DNA of 64,000 nucleotides from Thalassomonas sp. RHCl1. GTDB taxonomy: Bacteria; Pseudomonadota; Gammaproteobacteria; Enterobacterales; Alteromonadaceae. This document shows, piece by piece, positions 46,117 through 55,622 of this stretch. The notes under the pieces are model-generated. The model had not been told where the DNA came from and did no database searches. It saw only the letters and a list, made by a program, of their open reading frames with translations. The position numbers and the translations under genes were made by a program. Position 1 is the stretch's first letter; every line of letters begins with the position of its first letter. The DNA is taken from assembly GCF_947387555.1 (NCBI RefSeq), contig NZ_CANDNZ010000006.1:91482-155481 (forward strand), given 5' to 3'.

Positions 46117-46863
46117 ATGAAAAACCGGATTTTTATACTTGCCCTGTTAAACAGTTTGTTATTTGCCTGTAGCACTACCGGCGAACTGGATAAAGAGATC
46201 ATCAGTGACAGCCCCACCAACCCTAAGGTCAGTCAGCGACCGGCGCAAAAACAAAGCGAAGAAGTGATGCCGGATGCGCCCGCCTACCGGCCGATAAGGG
46301 GCAGCCGGATAGAAGTGGTGCAGCTGCCGACCGGTTCTTTGTTTAATCCCCGTCGGGCGATAGGCCTGTACCAGCCCAGCAGCCATTATCAGGTGGGCGA
46401 TATGATCCTGATCCGGCTGGAGGAGAAAACCACGGCGAAAAAATCGCTGGATTATAAAACCGATAAAAACGGTCATTTTGAATTGCAGCCGGTGACCTTT
46501 AATGCCGGTAATATCCAGGTGGGGGATAATGATTTAAGCGCCGCATTCGAGCAGGAAAATACCTTTGACAGCTCGGCGCAAACCAAGCAAAACAACTCCC
46601 TGACCGGCGATATCACCGTCTCTGTGCGTGAACTCTTACCCAACGGTAACCTGATTGTCAGCGGGGAAAAATGGCTTACCTTAAATACCGGCGATGAATA
46701 TATCCGCTTTTCCGGGCAAATCCGGGCCAGTGATATCGACAGCGATAATTCCATCAGCTCGGTTAAGGTCGGCAATGCCCGCATCGAATACAGCGGTAAG
46801 GGAGAGCAGCAGGCGAACCAGGAAAAATCCCTGCTGGGTAAATTATTCGGCATCCTGGAATAG
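46117..46863 (+). CDS. FlgH-like outer-membrane lipoprotein (flagellar L-ring protein family paralogue) outside any flagellar cluster
   Basis: Lipobox LLFAC|S. C-terminal half NGNLIVSGEKWLTLNTGDEYIRFSGQIRASDI...VGNARIEYSGKG closely parallels the FlgH consensus (…GEK…IRFSG…ADARIEY.G.G). Confidence 0.6.
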   Translation: MKNRIFILALLNSLLFACSTTGELDKEIISDSPTNPKVSQRPAQKQSEEVMPDAPAYRPIRGSRIEVVQLPTGSLFNPRRAIGLYQPSSHYQVGDMILIRLEEKTTAKKSLDYKTDKNGHFELQPVTFNAGNIQVGDNDLSAAFEQENTFDSSAQTKQNNSLTGDITVSVRELLPNGNLIVSGEKWLTLNTGDEYIRFSGQIRASDIDSDNSISSVKVGNARIEYSGKGEQQANQEKSLLGKLFGILE

Positions 46864-46874
46864 GAACCTGACTT

Positions 46875-48050
46875 ATGTGGCCGGTGTGTATGCGATTGTT
46901 ATTTCTTTTTATCCCCTTTATTTTCCCGCTTGCGGCAAGCGGACAGTGGTATCAGGGTAGCGCGCAAGTGGCCGTTACCGGTTTTGATTTTGATGAAGTG
47001 CGCACCAGGGCAATCAAAAGGGCCATCACCAATGCTTCGTTTCAGGCCAGCAGTTATATCAATGCCGAGGAAATTGTGCTTGACGGTTTATTGCAAAGCA
47101 GTAAATCCGCGATCCGCAGCGAAGGGCGGCTCAGGCGGGTGGAAATCCTCAGTGAAACTGTGCTGGATGATATGCTCACGGTGGAAGTTCGGGTGGACTT
47201 TGAACCCCAAATGGGCTGCGCCGGCGATGAATATCGTAAAAGCCTGGTGATCGCCCAGATGCCTTTGCTTAATGCCGCGCAAGGGGCTAACGGCGGCATG
47301 TTTAATATCGGCAGCCATGTCAGTAAAAGGTTTGAGCAGCAGCTGCTGGCGCAGGAAAATGTTGCTATCGGCCAGTTGCTGAACCAGGCTTTTCTGCCCC
47401 ATAACAGCATGCAGCAAATTGACTACCGGGAAGCAGCGGAAACCGCGCGTTATCTGGCGGGGGAATATGCCAGCCAGTTTATTTTGTTCGGTTTTATCCG
47501 GGATATCAGTTTATTTGAGCAGGTCAAAGATCAGTTGCTCTTTGATGACGTTAAACTCAGGCGCAATTTTACCATGCAGATCTATCTGTTCGACGGTATC
47601 CGCGGCAGTATCCTGATGCAAAAAGAATATCACGGCGAAAGCGATTGGTTATTTGCCGCCCATGAAACTGTAGATACCTATAACAGCCTGTTTTGGCGCA
47701 GCGATTACGGACGCATGATGCTCAATACCATTAACGGTGCGGTGACTGATATCGATGATGCCCTAAGGTGTCAGCAAAGCCTGGCACAGGTGATCAGCAA
47801 GGGAGAGCACGAGCTGGTGATCAATATGGGCAACAAGCATGGTTTAAAGGCCAGGGATGAGTTCAGGTTGATGAAATATCGGCTGCTGGTCGGTGCCAAC
47901 GGGCAAAGCCTGCCGTTATTGTCGGCCAATGAACAGAGGTTTTTCACTGTTTCCCGGGTAGACAGCCAGAGTGCGGTATTAACCAGCGCCAGTGCCAGCC
48001 TGCTCGAAAACAGCCACCTATTTGACTTTGTCAGCCCCAAAACCCAATAA
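46875..48050 (+). CDS. Secreted hypothetical protein (391 aa), downstream partner of the FlgH-like lipoprotein
   Basis: Signal peptide MWPVCMRLLFLFIPFIFPLAASG. The gene starts 11 nt after the upstream stop. The N-terminus QWYQGSAQVAVTGFDF is faintly reminiscent of Vibrio FlgT, a memory-based and unverified comparison. Confidence 0.45.
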   Translation: MWPVCMRLLFLFIPFIFPLAASGQWYQGSAQVAVTGFDFDEVRTRAIKRAITNASFQASSYINAEEIVLDGLLQSSKSAIRSEGRLRRVEILSETVLDDMLTVEVRVDFEPQMGCAGDEYRKSLVIAQMPLLNAAQGANGGMFNIGSHVSKRFEQQLLAQENVAIGQLLNQAFLPHNSMQQIDYREAAETARYLAGEYASQFILFGFIRDISLFEQVKDQLLFDDVKLRRNFTMQIYLFDGIRGSILMQKEYHGESDWLFAAHETVDTYNSLFWRSDYGRMMLNTINGAVTDIDDALRCQQSLAQVISKGEHELVINMGNKHGLKARDEFRLMKYRLLVGANGQSLPLLSANEQRFFTVSRVDSQSAVLTSASASLLENSHLFDFVSPKTQ

Positions 48051-48078
48051 AACCTAACTTTGGCGATGAAAGCTTAAA

Positions 48079-48300
48079 AGCGATTTTTTGGGTACTGGGG
48101 GAAGAGGCCCATATAGTCACACCAGGTGCTGATATTTGAGCCTGGCATGAAAGGGTCAGAAGCGTTTTTTTTGGTATTGGGGGTAGAGTTCCATATAGTC
48201 GCACCAGGTGCTGATATTTCAGCCTGGCATGAAAGGGTCAGAAGCGTTTTTTCTGGTATTGGGGGTAGAGTTCCATATAGTCGCACCAGGTACTGAAATG
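48079..48300. repeat. Tandem direct repeat, about 82-bp unit x about 2.7 copies, duplicating the 3' end (last ~27 codons plus stop plus T-run) of the 48238-48567 gene
   Basis: AGCG(A)TTTTTTGGTA(C/T)TGGGGG(A/T)AGAG(G/T)(C/T)CCATATAGTC(A/G)CACCAGGT(G/A)CTGA(T/A)AT(T/G)... units start at 48079, 48161 and 48243. Each unit on the minus strand encodes ...STWCDYM(E/G)L(Y/F)PQY(Q/P)K(K/N)RF*. Confidence 0.8.
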
Positions 48301-48567
48301 ACTGGCATTAAAGCGGGTATCTGTGGCCTTGTACCATTTCGAACTGTTTAACGGCGGCAGGCGGAATTTTATCTTATAGCCGTTGATAGCGACATAACAC
48401 AGCAGTTCTTCCCGGGTTTCATTGGTGATGCGTACCCGGGCATAATCCTGGGTATTGCGGTCATGGACGATTTTTATTTTCGGCATGGCATTAAGTTCAA
48501 AGGGAAGCAAGCATATTACGCATAGCCAGCAAATGACAGCCAGTGCCCGTGAAGTCGTTGTCAACAT
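48238..48567 (-). CDS. Small secreted/TM-anchored protein (109 aa) whose 3' terminus is tandemly duplicated downstream
   Basis: N-terminal hydrophobic LAVICWLCVICLLPF. C-terminus FSTWCDYMELYPQYQKKRF. The repeats downstream carry variant copies of that C-terminus. Confidence 0.5.
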   Translation of the reverse strand: MLTTTSRALAVICWLCVICLLPFELNAMPKIKIVHDRNTQDYARVRITNETREELLCYVAINGYKIKFRLPPLNSSKWYKATDTRFNASHFSTWCDYMELYPQYQKKRF

Positions 48568-48595
48568 CTCTTGCCTCCTTTGTTATCCCCTGTCC

Positions 48596-49456
48596 TCAGT
48601 CTACCTTATTTTCCAGCCTTTGGGTGATTTGTTGCGCCCAGTACAGGCTGATAATGATCAAGCCCCCGCCTACGGCCAGCCGGGTGATATCGGCGCTTTC
48701 ATTAAATAGCGTCAAGGCCAGCAAGACCGCCAGCGGGACATAAGCGTTGTTCATGATGGCCAGCAAGGGGGCGGAAACCTGTCTGGCCCCCAGGTTCCAC
48801 AGGAAAAATCCCAGGCCTGAAGCGATCAGCCCGAGATAAACCAGTACCGCCCATTGGCGCTGGCTGATCACTATATCGCTGCCTATGGCCTGGGGCAGCG
48901 CCGCCAGTGCCGTTAACAGCATAGCTCCCAGGTACATGGACGCCATGTTGACCTTATGCGGGCTGTCTAAAGTCACAGAATAATGTTTATAAGCCACCTG
49001 GCCAAAAGCAAACGCCAGATTGGCCAGCTGTAAAATCGCAAATCCGGTGACGACTTGCCCGGAGTCCGGCATTTTAAAGACTATGATGGCGGTGGCTAAA
49101 ATCGATAATAATACCGGTAGCAGCAGCACGGCGTTGAAACGCTTTGTCAGCAGGGCATCGAAAAGCATTACATATAAGGGGGTGAAGATGGTAAAAACCG
49201 CCACCAGGTAACCGGGTAAATACTGATAAGAGGCGATATAGGCGAGATACATCATGCCAAACTGTATGCTGCCCAGCAGCACCAGGCGCAGGTTAGGCCG
49301 ATACTTTTTTGCCATCAATGCCAGCGGCATAAACAGGAGAAAACAAAAGCCCAGGCGAATAAACGCCACCAGTGCCGGGGGGATGCCGGTGAGCTCCCCT
49401 TTAATTAAACCGAAAGAAAATGCCCAAAGCAGCGATACTGCGAATAATGCCAGCAA
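48596..49456 (-). CDS. DMT-superfamily (EamA-like) transporter
   Basis: 286 aa, 10 TM helices arranged as two EamA repeats. Confidence 0.75.
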   Translation of the reverse strand: MLALFAVSLLWAFSFGLIKGELTGIPPALVAFIRLGFCFLLFMPLALMAKKYRPNLRLVLLGSIQFGMMYLAYIASYQYLPGYLVAVFTIFTPLYVMLFDALLTKRFNAVLLLPVLLSILATAIIVFKMPDSGQVVTGFAILQLANLAFAFGQVAYKHYSVTLDSPHKVNMASMYLGAMLLTALAALPQAIGSDIVISQRQWAVLVYLGLIASGLGFFLWNLGARQVSAPLLAIMNNAYVPLAVLLALTLFNESADITRLAVGGGLIIISLYWAQQITQRLENKVD

Positions 49457-49696: not shown

Positions 49697-50455
49697 ATGG
49701 CTAAAATGGTTCCAGTAAGAAAAGAACAACATCAAAATTTAAAAGTGGCGGCAAAGCGTGATTTATCTCATGTTGCTAACCAGCATATCGTACCGGTAAA
49801 TGCAGTTGAGTTTGCCCAGGCGGCGACCAGCTTCCCTGTTGTTATCGTAAAAGATCCCGACTCTAACCGTTTCCGCTCTGTAGCTATGCTAGGCTTAGAA
49901 ACCGGCGAAAACCTGTATTACAGCAAGGAAAAATGGAATGCGATCTTTGTTCCGCAAAGCATCGGCATGGTGCCTTTTGCCTTAGGTCTGGATCCGGAAA
50001 AAGAAAAAACCCTGACCGCCTGTATCGATATGGACAGTGCCTTTGTTGGTGAAGACAAAGAAAATGCCTTGTTTGATGACAAAGGTGAAGAAACCGAATT
50101 CTTGAAAAAAATTCAGGAATCACTGGGTCGTTTATATGACAATGAAGTGGCTTCTGAAAAATTCATCAAGGAATTAGTAGATAATGATCTGCTGCAAGAG
50201 CTTGAGCTGAACATGTCACTGGTTAGCGGCGAGAAGAAAAAGCTGGTAGGTATCTACACGGTTCACGAGAAGAAATTACAGGAACTGAGCGATGAAAAAG
50301 TTATCGACTTCCACAAGCGTGGCTTATTCGTACCTTTACATGCCATGTTAGGTTCTATTGCCCAGGTTAACCGTTTGGTGCAATTACGTAACGAAAGCTC
50401 AGACAACAAAATCAACGGCATTCAGATCAGCCCGATCGCCGCTGAAGAAAAATAA
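49697..50455 (+). CDS. SapC-family protein
   Basis: Roughly 250 aa with PVNAVEFAQAATSFPVVIVKD and MLGLE...YYSKEKWNAIFVPQSIGMVPFALG, which resemble the SapC (PF07277) pattern. From memory, unverified. Confidence 0.5.
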   Translation: MAKMVPVRKEQHQNLKVAAKRDLSHVANQHIVPVNAVEFAQAATSFPVVIVKDPDSNRFRSVAMLGLETGENLYYSKEKWNAIFVPQSIGMVPFALGLDPEKEKTLTACIDMDSAFVGEDKENALFDDKGEETEFLKKIQESLGRLYDNEVASEKFIKELVDNDLLQELELNMSLVSGEKKKLVGIYTVHEKKLQELSDEKVIDFHKRGLFVPLHAMLGSIAQVNRLVQLRNESSDNKINGIQISPIAAEEK

Positions 50456-54019: not shown

Positions 54020-54137
54020 CTTGATGACAGCTTTTGTTTTTCGTATTGATTTATGATGCTATTATACCGGCAATTTTATCCTTGTTTGATGCGTGAATAC
54101 TAATAGTATTGATACGCCATGATTGAATTTATTCTAT

Positions 54138-55622
54138 ATGTCTAAGAAAAAAGGTTTATTTTCCTGGTTAGGTTTAGGTGGCCAGAAGAAAGAAAAGCAA
54201 AATGAAGCCGAGCTTGAAGCAGAAAAATTAGCGGCGGAAAAAGCCGAAGCAGAGCGCCTTGCCGCCGAGCAGGCAGAAGCGGACAGGTTAGCGGCGGAAA
54301 AAGCCGAAGCTGAGCGAATTGCCGCCGAGCAGGCAGAAGCGGATAAGTTGGCGGCGGAAAAAGCCGAAACAGAACGCCTTGCCGCTGAGCAGGCAGAAGC
54401 GGATAAGTTGGCGGCGGAAAAAGCCGAAGCAGAGCGCCTTGCCGCCGAGCAGGCGGAAGCGGATAAGTTGGCGGCGGAAAAAGCCGAAGCAGAGCGCCTT
54501 GCCGCCGAGCAGGCAGAAGCGGACAGGTTAGCGGCGGAACAAGCCGAAGCTGAGCGCATTGCTGCCGAGCAGGCGGAAGCGGACAGGTTAGCGGCGGAAC
54601 AAGCCGAAGCAGAGCGCATTGCCGCCGAGCAGGCAGAAGCGGACAGGTTGGCGGCGGAACAAGCCGAAGCAGAACAAGCGGAAGCCGAAAAGGCCAAACC
54701 TAAAAAAGCCGGCTTTTTCACCCGATTAAAACAAAGCCTGACCAAGACCCGGCAGAACCTGGGTGGCGGGATCTTTGATTTGTTCCGTGGCAAAAAGATC
54801 GATGATGAATTATTCGAAGAATTAGAAACTCACTTGTTACTGGCGGATGTCGGGGTGGACACCACCACTAAAATTATCGATTCCCTGACCGAGTCTGCCA
54901 GCCGCAGCCAGCTAAAAGATGCGGAAGCGCTTTACGATTTGCTTAAGCAGGAGCTGAAAAAAGTGATCGAACCGGTGAGTCAGCCGCTGGAAATTCCGGA
55001 TACCCAAGGTCCTTATGTGATCTTAATGGTGGGGGTTAATGGTGTCGGTAAAACCACCACCATAGGTAAGCTGGCGAAACAGTTCCAGGCCCAGGGCAAG
55101 TCGGTGATGCTGGCTGCCGGCGATACTTTCCGCGCCGCCGCAGTGGAGCAGTTGCAGGTTTGGGGTGAGCGTAACGATATCCCTGTGATTGCCCAGCATA
55201 CAGGTGCAGACAGCGCCTCGGTGATTTTTGATGCCATCAGTGCCGCCAAAGCCCGCGGGGCGGATATCTTGATCGCCGATACCGCAGGTCGTTTGCAGAA
55301 TAAAAATCACCTGATGGAAGAATTGAAAAAGGTGGTGCGAGTCATGAAAAAACAAGATGTTGCCGCGCCCCATGAAGTGATGCTGACCCTGGATGCCGGT
55401 ACCGGACAAAATGCCCTGAGCCAGGCTTCCTTGTTTGATCAGGCGGTTGGTTTAACCGGTTTAACCTTGACCAAGCTTGACGGTACAGCCAAAGGCGGGG
55501 TTGTCTTTGCCATCGCCGATAAGTTTGCCATGCCCATTCGTTATCTTGGCGTAGGGGAAGGTATAGATGATTTAAGGCCTTTTAACGGTGATGATTTTAT
55601 CGATGCGCTTTTTGAAAAATAA
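54138..55622 (+). CDS. ftsY: Signal-recognition-particle receptor FtsY with an expanded acidic repeat A-domain
   Basis: N-terminus [17 protein letters not shown] matches E. coli MAKEKKRGFFSWLGFGQK. NG domain [20 protein letters not shown] and [10 protein letters not shown]. The six-frame ORF begins at 54123. Confidence 0.95.
54226..54670 (+). repeat. In-frame tandem repeat inside ftsY, with a 60-bp unit (two 30-bp half-units) x about 7 encoding (LAAE[KQ]AEA[ED]R)n
   Basis: GCGGCGGAAAAAGCCGAAGCAGAGCGCCTTGCCGCCGAGCAGGCAGAAGCGGACAGGTTA recurs with minor K/R, L/I, E/Q substitutions. Confidence 0.85.

What the first reader, a model, noticed from the sequence alone, without database searches (positions are those of the whole stretch)
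48079..48567. 82-bp tandem repeats that re-duplicate the 3' end (C-terminal ~27 codons, stop codon and T-tract) of a small secreted-protein gene
There are three head-to-tail units at 48079, 48161 and 48243, the last merging into the intact gene at 48238-48567 on the minus strand. Each carries a variant C-terminus (…STWCDYMELYPQYQKKRF, …STWCDYMGLFPQYPKNRF, …) and its own stop and poly-A/T tract. Tandem duplication confined to a gene's 3' terminus with coding variation looks like a cassette reservoir for C-terminal swapping by slipped-strand recombination or homologous recombination. An alternative is repeated terminator units. The protein itself (Cys-rich signal/anchor, W/Y-rich tail) is unassigned.
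Basis: seen in the sequence. Interest (0 to 1): 0.55.

Follow-up and report, generated by a model that had tools for sequence, protein, structure and literature searches.

The report
Decaying tandem copies of a gene's tail
The last ~80 bases of a small secreted-protein gene in a marine Thalassomonas bacterium were copied head-to-tail by replication slippage, leaving untranslated, decaying copies between two converging genes; this is an ordinary variable-number repeat, not a system for swapping protein tails.

Summary
An 82-bp unit occurs 2.7 times at 48078-48296 (92% matches), and the last unit is the true 3' end of a 109-aa gene (48238-48567, minus strand). The window is Thalassomonas sp. RHCl1.

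- **Origin:** the tail motif FSTWCDY..P.Y is conserved across the protein family in Colwelliaceae. The repeats therefore derive from the gene, not from an inserted element.
- **Copy number in relatives:** it varies. T. viridans and several metagenomic relatives have 0 extra units, one relative has a degenerate remnant, T. actiniarum has 1, and T. haliotis and this window have 2.
- **Not coding:** the extra units lie after the stop codon, and 82 is not a multiple of 3. Both T. haliotis extra units carry an in-frame TAG. Junctions diverge at about the neutral rate.
- **Turnover:** units resemble each other within a genome more than across genomes.
- **Mechanism:** a short direct repeat, CGCTTT(T)AA (codons R85-F-N and R108-F-stop, 69 nt apart), is also present in single-copy relatives. 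One T. haliotis junction is an exact fusion at it, which points to slipped-strand mispairing.
- **Excluded:** no excess RNA structure, no Rfam match, no convincing terminator.

Verdict: an ordinary lineage-specific minisatellite. The cassette-reservoir reading is not supported.

The parts
48238..48567 (-). Intact gene for a 109-aa small secreted protein (Sec-type signal peptide, mature part from about M28, conserved Cys57 and Cys95); AAGGAGG lies 7 nt upstream of the ATG
   Evidence: ORF. 37 homologues, with invariant N49 T51 C57 G63 W78 Y79 W94 C95 D96. Exact match to WP_281559130.1 of Thalassomonas sp. RHCl1. AlphaFold2 model pLDDT 88, small beta-sandwich.
48238..48319 (-). Unit 3: the gene's own last 82 nt (codons ~T83 to F109 plus TGA), the source copy of the array
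   Evidence: The tail motif FSTWCDY..P.Y is conserved family-wide, so this copy is ancestral coding sequence.
48156..48237 (-). Unit 2: young untranslated copy. Its 27-nt junction part is followed by a 55-nt tail that is 53/55 identical to the gene tail, encodes the same amino acids and keeps the TGA.
   Evidence: 51/52 over the 52-nt core.
48074..48155 (-). Unit 1: older, decaying untranslated copy (44-46 of 55 identical to the other tails). It keeps the ancestral TTT TAA ending and would read ...TWCDYMGLFPQYPKNRF*.
   Evidence: 39-44 of 52 to every other tail in any genome.
48051..48073 (.). Residual original intergenic spacer between the last unit's stop and the stop of convergent flgT
   Evidence: The homologous spacer is 17-28 nt in single-copy relatives.
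48310..48315 (-). Internal copy of the short direct repeat CGCTTT(AAT), codons R85-F86-N87. It lies 69 nt upstream of the terminal CGCTT(C/T)T(G/A)A at 48241-48246, and is repeated at 48159-48164 and 48077-48082.
   Evidence: Both copies are present in all Thalassomonas relatives, including single-copy T. viridans. The T. haliotis junction AACGCTTTTAATGCCAGG is a fusion of the two.
46875..48050 (+). Convergent neighbour flgT (391 aa), whose 3' end faces the array
   Evidence: Pfam FlgT_N, FlgT_M and FlgT_C.
48596..49456 (-). Upstream co-directional EamA-family transporter gene, ending 28 nt before the small gene's ATG

Best explanation
This is a lineage-specific minisatellite (a variable-number tandem repeat) made from the 3' end of a conserved small secreted-protein gene. 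Replication slippage or unequal exchange between short direct repeats that pre-existed in the gene duplicated the last ~70-82 nt head-to-tail. These repeats are CGCTTT-AA at codons R85-F-N and CGCTTT-TAA at R108-F-stop, followed by GCC-rich sequence. Once two units existed, homologous mispairing between units added and removed copies, so arrays differ between sister species and units are homogenised within each genome. The extra units lie downstream of the stop codon in the spacer between two convergent genes. They are not translated and decay at the neutral rate. Their only certain effect is to lengthen the spacer and 3' UTR from about 20 nt to 187 nt. Shown: the repeat itself, its derivation from the gene, copy-number variation, lack of coding constraint and lack of RNA structure. 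Inferred: the slippage mechanism and the neutrality of the array.
For: (1) The array is real: period 82, 2.7 copies, 92%; 0 matches in shuffles. (2) The tail is ancestral to the protein: FSTWCDY..P.Y with invariant W94 C95 D96 in 28 aligned homologues. (3) The distance from the gene's stop to the flgT stop is 17-28 nt with no copy in T. viridans, L076, L003-L010 and L011. It is 55 nt with a degenerate ~33-nt remnant in L002 (0 of 2000 shuffles score as well), 105 nt with 1 extra 82-nt unit in T. actiniarum, 188 nt with 2 extra units of 85 and 73 nt in T. haliotis, and 187 nt with 2 extra units here. (4) Of 73 loci of the family examined, including 61 genome loci from Colwellia, Thalassotalea, Litorilituus and relatives, only T. 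actiniarum showed a tail duplicate at E <= 1e-3. T. haliotis and T. viridans were fetched afterwards and read directly. (5) There is no coding constraint: both T. haliotis extra units read WCD*KY. Unit lengths of 82, 85 and 73 are not multiples of 3. Junction divergence between the window and T. actiniarum is 6-7 of 27 nt, against 16-22% at 4-fold sites in the flanking genes. (6) Turnover and concerted evolution: tails are 49-51 of 52 identical within a genome but 41-48 across genomes. The distal window unit is 39-44 to everything. (7) Microhomology: CGCTTT at gene positions 253 and 322 in all relatives, and the T. haliotis junction CGCTTTTAA|TGCCAGG is a fusion at that repeat. A (TTAATGCC)x3 microrepeat sits in another junction. 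(8) No structured RNA.
Against: The exact breakpoint of the first duplication cannot be reconstructed. The 27-nt junction resembles both the gene-internal sequence and the 3' flank (best chimera models give 16-18 of 27), and relating it to the gene needs small indels. Persistence of some form of the array in at least three species could hint at a benefit, such as spacing convergent transcription, which I cannot exclude. Copy-number variation is shown between species, not between strains of one species. No expression data exist.
Confidence: 0.8

Rival explanations
1. Cassette reservoir: the downstream units are silent variant C-termini that are recombined into the expressed gene to diversify the protein's tail.
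For: The units share more than 50 nt of homology with the gene tail, so in-register recombination is physically possible. The distal unit would change 4 residues (E98G, Y100F, Q104P, K106N). Within-genome homogenisation shows that sequence is exchanged or re-copied between the gene tail and the extras.
Against: There are only two extras, and one is identical at the amino-acid level. The T. haliotis extras carry an in-frame stop. Relatives have 0-1 copies. Divergence is at the neutral rate. No recombinase or invertase is among the five neighbouring ORFs scanned against Pfam (FlgH-like, FlgT, EamA, SapC). The family's tail positions that differ are already variable.
Confidence: 0.05
2. Functional 3' UTR or terminator array: each unit supplies a hairpin and a U-tract (the complement of the Lys codons) that terminates flgT or insulates the two convergent transcripts.
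For: The consensus scan finds CTGGCATGAAAGGGTCAG followed by AAGCGTTTTT twice on the + strand, once per extra unit. In total 4 terminator-like sites are found against 1.6 +/- 1.2 in shuffles. The array lengthens a very short spacer between convergent genes.
Against: The stems have only 5 pairs with 3 G-C, and the T-run starts after a 5-nt AAGCG spacer. Folding energy of the region is no better than shuffles on either strand (z -1.20 and +0.38). There is no Rfam match. The hairpin sequence is not conserved between the window and T. actiniarum (6-7 of 27 differences with different pairing). Most relatives manage with a 17-28 nt spacer.
Confidence: 0.08
3. Assembly artefact (an expanded repeat) in this genome.
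For: Units 2 and 3 are nearly identical (53/55 in the tail), which in principle could mislead an assembler.
Against: An 82-nt unit is shorter than typical reads. The distal unit is clearly diverged. Two independent complete genomes have arrays at the same site with their own species-specific substitutions.
Confidence: 0.02
4. A mobile or dispersed repeat element (REP/BIME or MITE-like) that inserted at the gene's 3' end and now supplies its C-terminus.
For: Each unit has an imperfect palindrome (CCAGGCTGAAATATCAGCACCTGG).
Against: The tail sequence is conserved across the protein family in genera that lack the repeat. The unit occurs nowhere else in the 64-kb window. Part of the palindrome is inherited from codons A-S-H-F-S-T-W.
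Confidence: 0.02

Closest known systems
Bacterial minisatellites / VNTR loci (as used in MLVA typing), generated by slipped-strand mispairing and unequal recombination
   Same: Head-to-tail units of tens of bases, copy number differing between close relatives, homogenisation within an array, and origin at short direct repeats.
   Different: This is a single locus with only 2-3 units. The unit is a copy of a gene's terminal codons plus stop, rather than anonymous intergenic or in-frame coding sequence. Variation is shown between species only.
Mycobacterial interspersed repetitive units (MIRU), from my own knowledge of the literature: 46-101-bp intergenic tandem repeats whose units contain stop and start codons overlapping adjacent genes
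   Same: The unit size is similar, and each unit carries the upstream gene's stop codon.
   Different: MIRUs are dispersed at tens of loci and sit between co-directional genes of operons. This array is found at one place in the 64-kb window and lies between convergent genes.
Silent-cassette or orphan-module systems (pilE/pilS; CdiA-CT and Rhs orphan C-terminal modules)
   Same: Partial 3' gene copies lie downstream of an expressed gene, with homology that could allow recombination.
   Different: There are no diverse cassettes, no maintained reading frames (an in-frame stop in T. haliotis), no immunity genes and no recombination machinery. The variable part is about 18 residues of low conservation.

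Membership tests
Minisatellite / VNTR | Perfectly head-to-tail units, period about 10-100+ bp | tested here: met
   TRF: period 82, 2.7 copies, 92% matches, 0 indels.
Minisatellite / VNTR | Copy number varies among related genomes | tested here: met
   0 extra units (T. viridans, L003-L011), a remnant (L002), 1 (T. actiniarum), 2 (T. haliotis, window). Strain-level variation was not tested.
Minisatellite / VNTR | Units homogenised within an array (concerted evolution or turnover) | tested here: met
   Tails are 49-51 of 52 identical within a genome against 41-48 between genomes.
Silent-cassette C-terminal variation (pilS-like, CdiA-CT/Rhs orphans) | Several sequence-diverse cassettes with maintained coding potential | tested here: not met
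   One extra unit is identical at the amino-acid level and one has 4 changes. Both T. haliotis extras have an in-frame TAG.
Silent-cassette C-terminal variation (pilS-like, CdiA-CT/Rhs orphans) | Associated immunity genes or recombination functions | tested here: not met
   The neighbours scanned against Pfam are FlgH-like, FlgT, EamA and SapC family. No recombinase was seen among them.
Intrinsic (Rho-independent) terminator | Stable G+C-rich hairpin immediately followed by a U-tract | tested here: inconclusive
   Only 5-pair stems with 3 G-C, with the T-run after a 5-nt AAGCG spacer. Fold energies are not better than shuffles. Function is not testable here.
REP/BIME or MITE-type dispersed repeat | Many dispersed copies in the genome; palindromic units | tested here: not met
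   No copy elsewhere in the 64-kb window at up to 3 mismatches. The unit sequence is ancestral coding sequence. The whole genome was not scanned.
MIRU-type repeats | Dispersed at many intergenic loci within operons, with overlapping stop and start codons | tested here: not met
   Single locus in the window; it lies between convergent genes.
Known RNA family (Rfam 15) | Match to a covariance model | tested here: not met
   0 matches at E <= 1 in 47800-48800.

The most novel reading that the evidence does not exclude
The pseudo-tails are not merely debris. Repeated gene conversion between them and the expressed tail (suggested by within-genome homogenisation) could let mutations accumulate silently downstream and then be copied into the gene. 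That would speed up evolution of the exposed C-terminus of a conserved secreted beta-sandwich protein, a miniature unprogrammed cassette mechanism.
Probability: 0.05. Interest if true: 0.45.

Novelty: new member of a known kind. Interest (0 to 1): 0.15.

Why it matters
It matters little beyond this locus. It is a clean, well-dated small example of how a short direct repeat inside a gene seeds a 3'-terminal tandem duplication that then turns over independently in sister species. It could serve as a length marker for typing Thalassomonas isolates. It also warns annotators that repeated 'C-terminal ORFs' downstream of a stop codon can be decaying copies rather than cassettes.

Tried and rejected
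- **Terminator or structured RNA:** RNA folds of 48040-48300 on both strands gave z -1.20 and +0.38. Rfam gave no match. The consensus scan found only weak stems.
- **Invading repeat element:** rejected, because the tail is conserved across the protein family and the unit is unique in the window.
- **More examples in metagenomes:** one scan with the degenerate core CTGGTGYGAYTATATGGRNCTCTWYCCCCA returned only a contig already held, with 0 extra copies.
- **Genome collection scan:** it gave 61 loci but no Thalassomonas. T. haliotis and T. viridans were reached instead through cluster members.
- **Exact duplication breakpoint:** gene/flank chimera models gave at best 16-18 of 27 and were ambiguous, because the gene-internal and flank sequences resemble each other.
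- **Function for the protein:** Pfam gave nothing significant (Isoamylase_C, E 0.054, below cut-off). Foldseek against PDB gave no hit at E <= 0.001; the best were de novo Ig-like domains and Cj0090.
- **Literature:** a search on tandem duplication and microhomology between convergent genes found nothing specific.
- **Selection on the distal pseudo-tail:** not testable, because there are too few substitutions.

Full report
**Observation.** The region was read directly. Tandem Repeats Finder reports a single array at 48078-48296 with period 82, 2.7 copies, 92% matches and no indels (score 368). A 50-nt core of the unit matches only inside this array in the 64-kb window, and never in 100 shuffles. 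The 109-aa ORF at 48238-48567 on the minus strand exists and has AAGGAGG 7 nt before its ATG (read). I phase the units so that each ends on its stop codon. Unit 3 (48238-48319) is the gene's own tail, unit 2 is 48156-48237 and unit 1 is 48074-48155. A 23-nt spacer then runs to the stop of the convergent flgT gene, which occupies 46875-48050 (+) and matches Pfam FlgT_N/M/C. The tails read TWCDYMELYPQYQKKRF* (gene and unit 2) and TWCDYMGLFPQYPKNRF* (unit 1). The 'A/T tract' is the pair of Lys codons.

**Which came first, gene or repeat?** The protein has 37 database homologues. An alignment of 28 of them shows that the duplicated part is the most conserved stretch of the family: FSTWCDY..P.Y, with W94, C95 and D96 invariant. 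An AlphaFold2 model (pLDDT 88.4) places STWCDY as the last beta-strand of a small beta-sandwich. The repeat is therefore derived from ancestral coding sequence, not from an element that invaded the gene.

**Source organism and relatives.**
- The exact protein is WP_281559130.1 of Thalassomonas sp. RHCl1.
- The locus is 92-94% identical in DNA to T. actiniarum CP059735.
- I fetched the same locus from T. actiniarum (L001), T. haliotis CP059693 (L074), T. viridans CP059733 (L075) and 12 metagenomic contigs (L002-L011 and L076).
- I also fetched 61 genome loci of the family from Colwellia, Thalassotalea, Litorilituus and related genera.

**Copy number.** The distance from the small gene's stop to the flgT stop varies as follows.

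| Locus | Distance (nt) | Extra units |
|---|---|---|
| L011 | 17 | 0 |
| T. viridans and L076 | 20 | 0 |
| L003-L010 | 28 | 0 |
| L002 | 55 | degenerate ~33-nt remnant of a second tail (local score 26; 0 of 2000 shuffles as good) |
| T. actiniarum | 105 | 1 unit of 82 nt |
| T. haliotis | 188 | 2 units, 85 and 73 nt |
| Window | 187 | 2 units of 82 nt |

In a BLAST test of each gene's last 84 nt against its downstream 700 nt across 73 loci, only T. actiniarum gave a hit at E <= 1e-3. T. haliotis and T. viridans were fetched after that test and read directly. The array is thus confined to one young Thalassomonas clade and differs in every member.

**Are the extra units coding or constrained?**
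- They lie after the stop codon. Their lengths (82, 85, 73) are not multiples of three, so read-through would not reproduce the tail.
- Unit 2 here is 53/55 identical to the gene's tail, and both differences are synonymous.
- Unit 1 differs at 9-11 of 55 positions, with 4 amino-acid changes at positions that vary in the family anyway.
- Both T. haliotis extras read WCD*KY, with an in-frame TAG.
- The 27-nt junction part differs between the window and T. actiniarum at 6-7 positions. This is like the 16-22% divergence at four-fold degenerate sites of the small gene, flgT and eamA.
- These are the signatures of untranslated, neutrally decaying DNA.

**Dynamics.** I built a 52-nt tail identity matrix.
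- Units group by genome: window gene and unit 2 are 51/52, the T. actiniarum pair is 51/52, and the T. haliotis trio is 49-50/52.
- Across genomes the values are 41-48.
- Species-specific substitutions are shared by gene and extras, for example the T. haliotis TAT CTC TAT.
- The distal window unit is equidistant from everything (39-44).
- The junction sequences of the window and T. actiniarum are nevertheless homologous: 20-21 of 27 identical, against 7-12 to the gene-internal sequence.
- The array is therefore old, and L002 keeps a remnant of it, but its units are continually re-copied and lost. This is classic concerted evolution of a tandem array.

**Mechanism.** CGCTTT occurs at gene positions 253 (codons R85-F86, followed by AAT GCC AG) and 322 (R108-F109, followed by TAA). 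The two copies are 69 nt apart in every Thalassomonas relative, including the single-copy ones. One T. haliotis junction, AACGCTTTTAA|TGCCAGG, is exactly the fusion expected from mispairing of these two copies. Another junction contains (TTAATGCC)x3. The 82-nt junctions carry an extra CC(C)TTTCA/CCTGTTAA block that resembles both the preceding GCTTTTAA and the original 3' flank. Chimera models could not fix the breakpoint. I infer slipped-strand mispairing at short direct repeats as the origin, followed by unit-level slippage or unequal exchange. This step is inferred, not shown.

**Alternatives tested.**
- RNA folds of 48040-48300 are no more stable than dinucleotide shuffles on either strand (z -1.20 and +0.38).
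- Rfam gives no match.
- The terminator scan finds only a 5-pair stem (3 G-C) followed by AAGCGTTTTT in each extra unit on the flgT strand. A weak accessory terminator role cannot be excluded, but nothing supports it.
- No recombinase or immunity-like gene is among the five neighbouring ORFs scanned against Pfam.

**The protein.** It remains unassigned. It has a signal peptide and a small Ig-like beta-sandwich with two conserved cysteines. There is no significant Pfam hit and no PDB fold match at E <= 0.001. Its conserved genomic partner is not flgT but a divergently oriented SapC-family gene. That gene was detected in 64 of the 73 loci searched, including 60 of the 61 genome loci from other genera. 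The flgT adjacency is seen only in Thalassomonas and its close metagenomic relatives.

**Verdict.** The feature is real and correctly described, but it is an ordinary lineage-specific minisatellite built from a gene's terminal codons. It is not a programmed cassette system or a terminator array. Interest is low.

Noticed in passing
window 54231-54673 (+), inside ORF 54123-55622: A second, larger tandem array: period 60, 7.4 copies, 92% matches. It is in frame and encodes about 20-aa [20 protein letters not shown] repeats in the N-terminal part of a 499-aa protein. From its C-terminal sequence the protein looks like the SRP receptor FtsY; this is my reading of the sequence and was not tested.
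   Followed up: partly
window 48238-48567 (-) and 49697-50455 (+); loci L012-L072: The small secreted protein is linked to a divergently oriented SapC-family (PF07277) gene, detected in 64 of the 73 loci searched across Colwellia, Thalassotalea, Litorilituus and relatives. An EamA transporter gene lies between them only in Thalassomonas and some Thalassotalea. The flgT adjacency is Thalassomonas-specific. This suggests a functional pair of unknown role.
   Followed up: partly
window 48238-48567 (-): The AlphaFold2 model (pLDDT 88) is a small beta-sandwich. Cys57 and Cys95 are invariant in the family and may form a disulfide. The three further Cys residues lie in the signal peptide and are not conserved. 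Public records annotate the orthologues with different starts (82, 98, 102 and 109 aa), and one UniRef entry names one 'KTSC domain-containing protein', which the Pfam scan here did not reproduce.
   Followed up: partly
L074 (T. haliotis CP059693) about 1831-2018: The junction after the gene's stop contains an 8-bp microsatellite (TTAATGCC)x3. A partial junction copy also follows the last unit, so the same few bases are a hotspot for several independent small slippage events.
   Followed up: partly
window 46117-46863 (+) and 46875-48050 (+): A FlgH-family (flagellar L-ring, PF02107) protein of 248 aa, which from its N-terminal sequence looks like a lipoprotein, is encoded immediately upstream of flgT. 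The pair is conserved in all Thalassomonas loci fetched.
   Followed up: no
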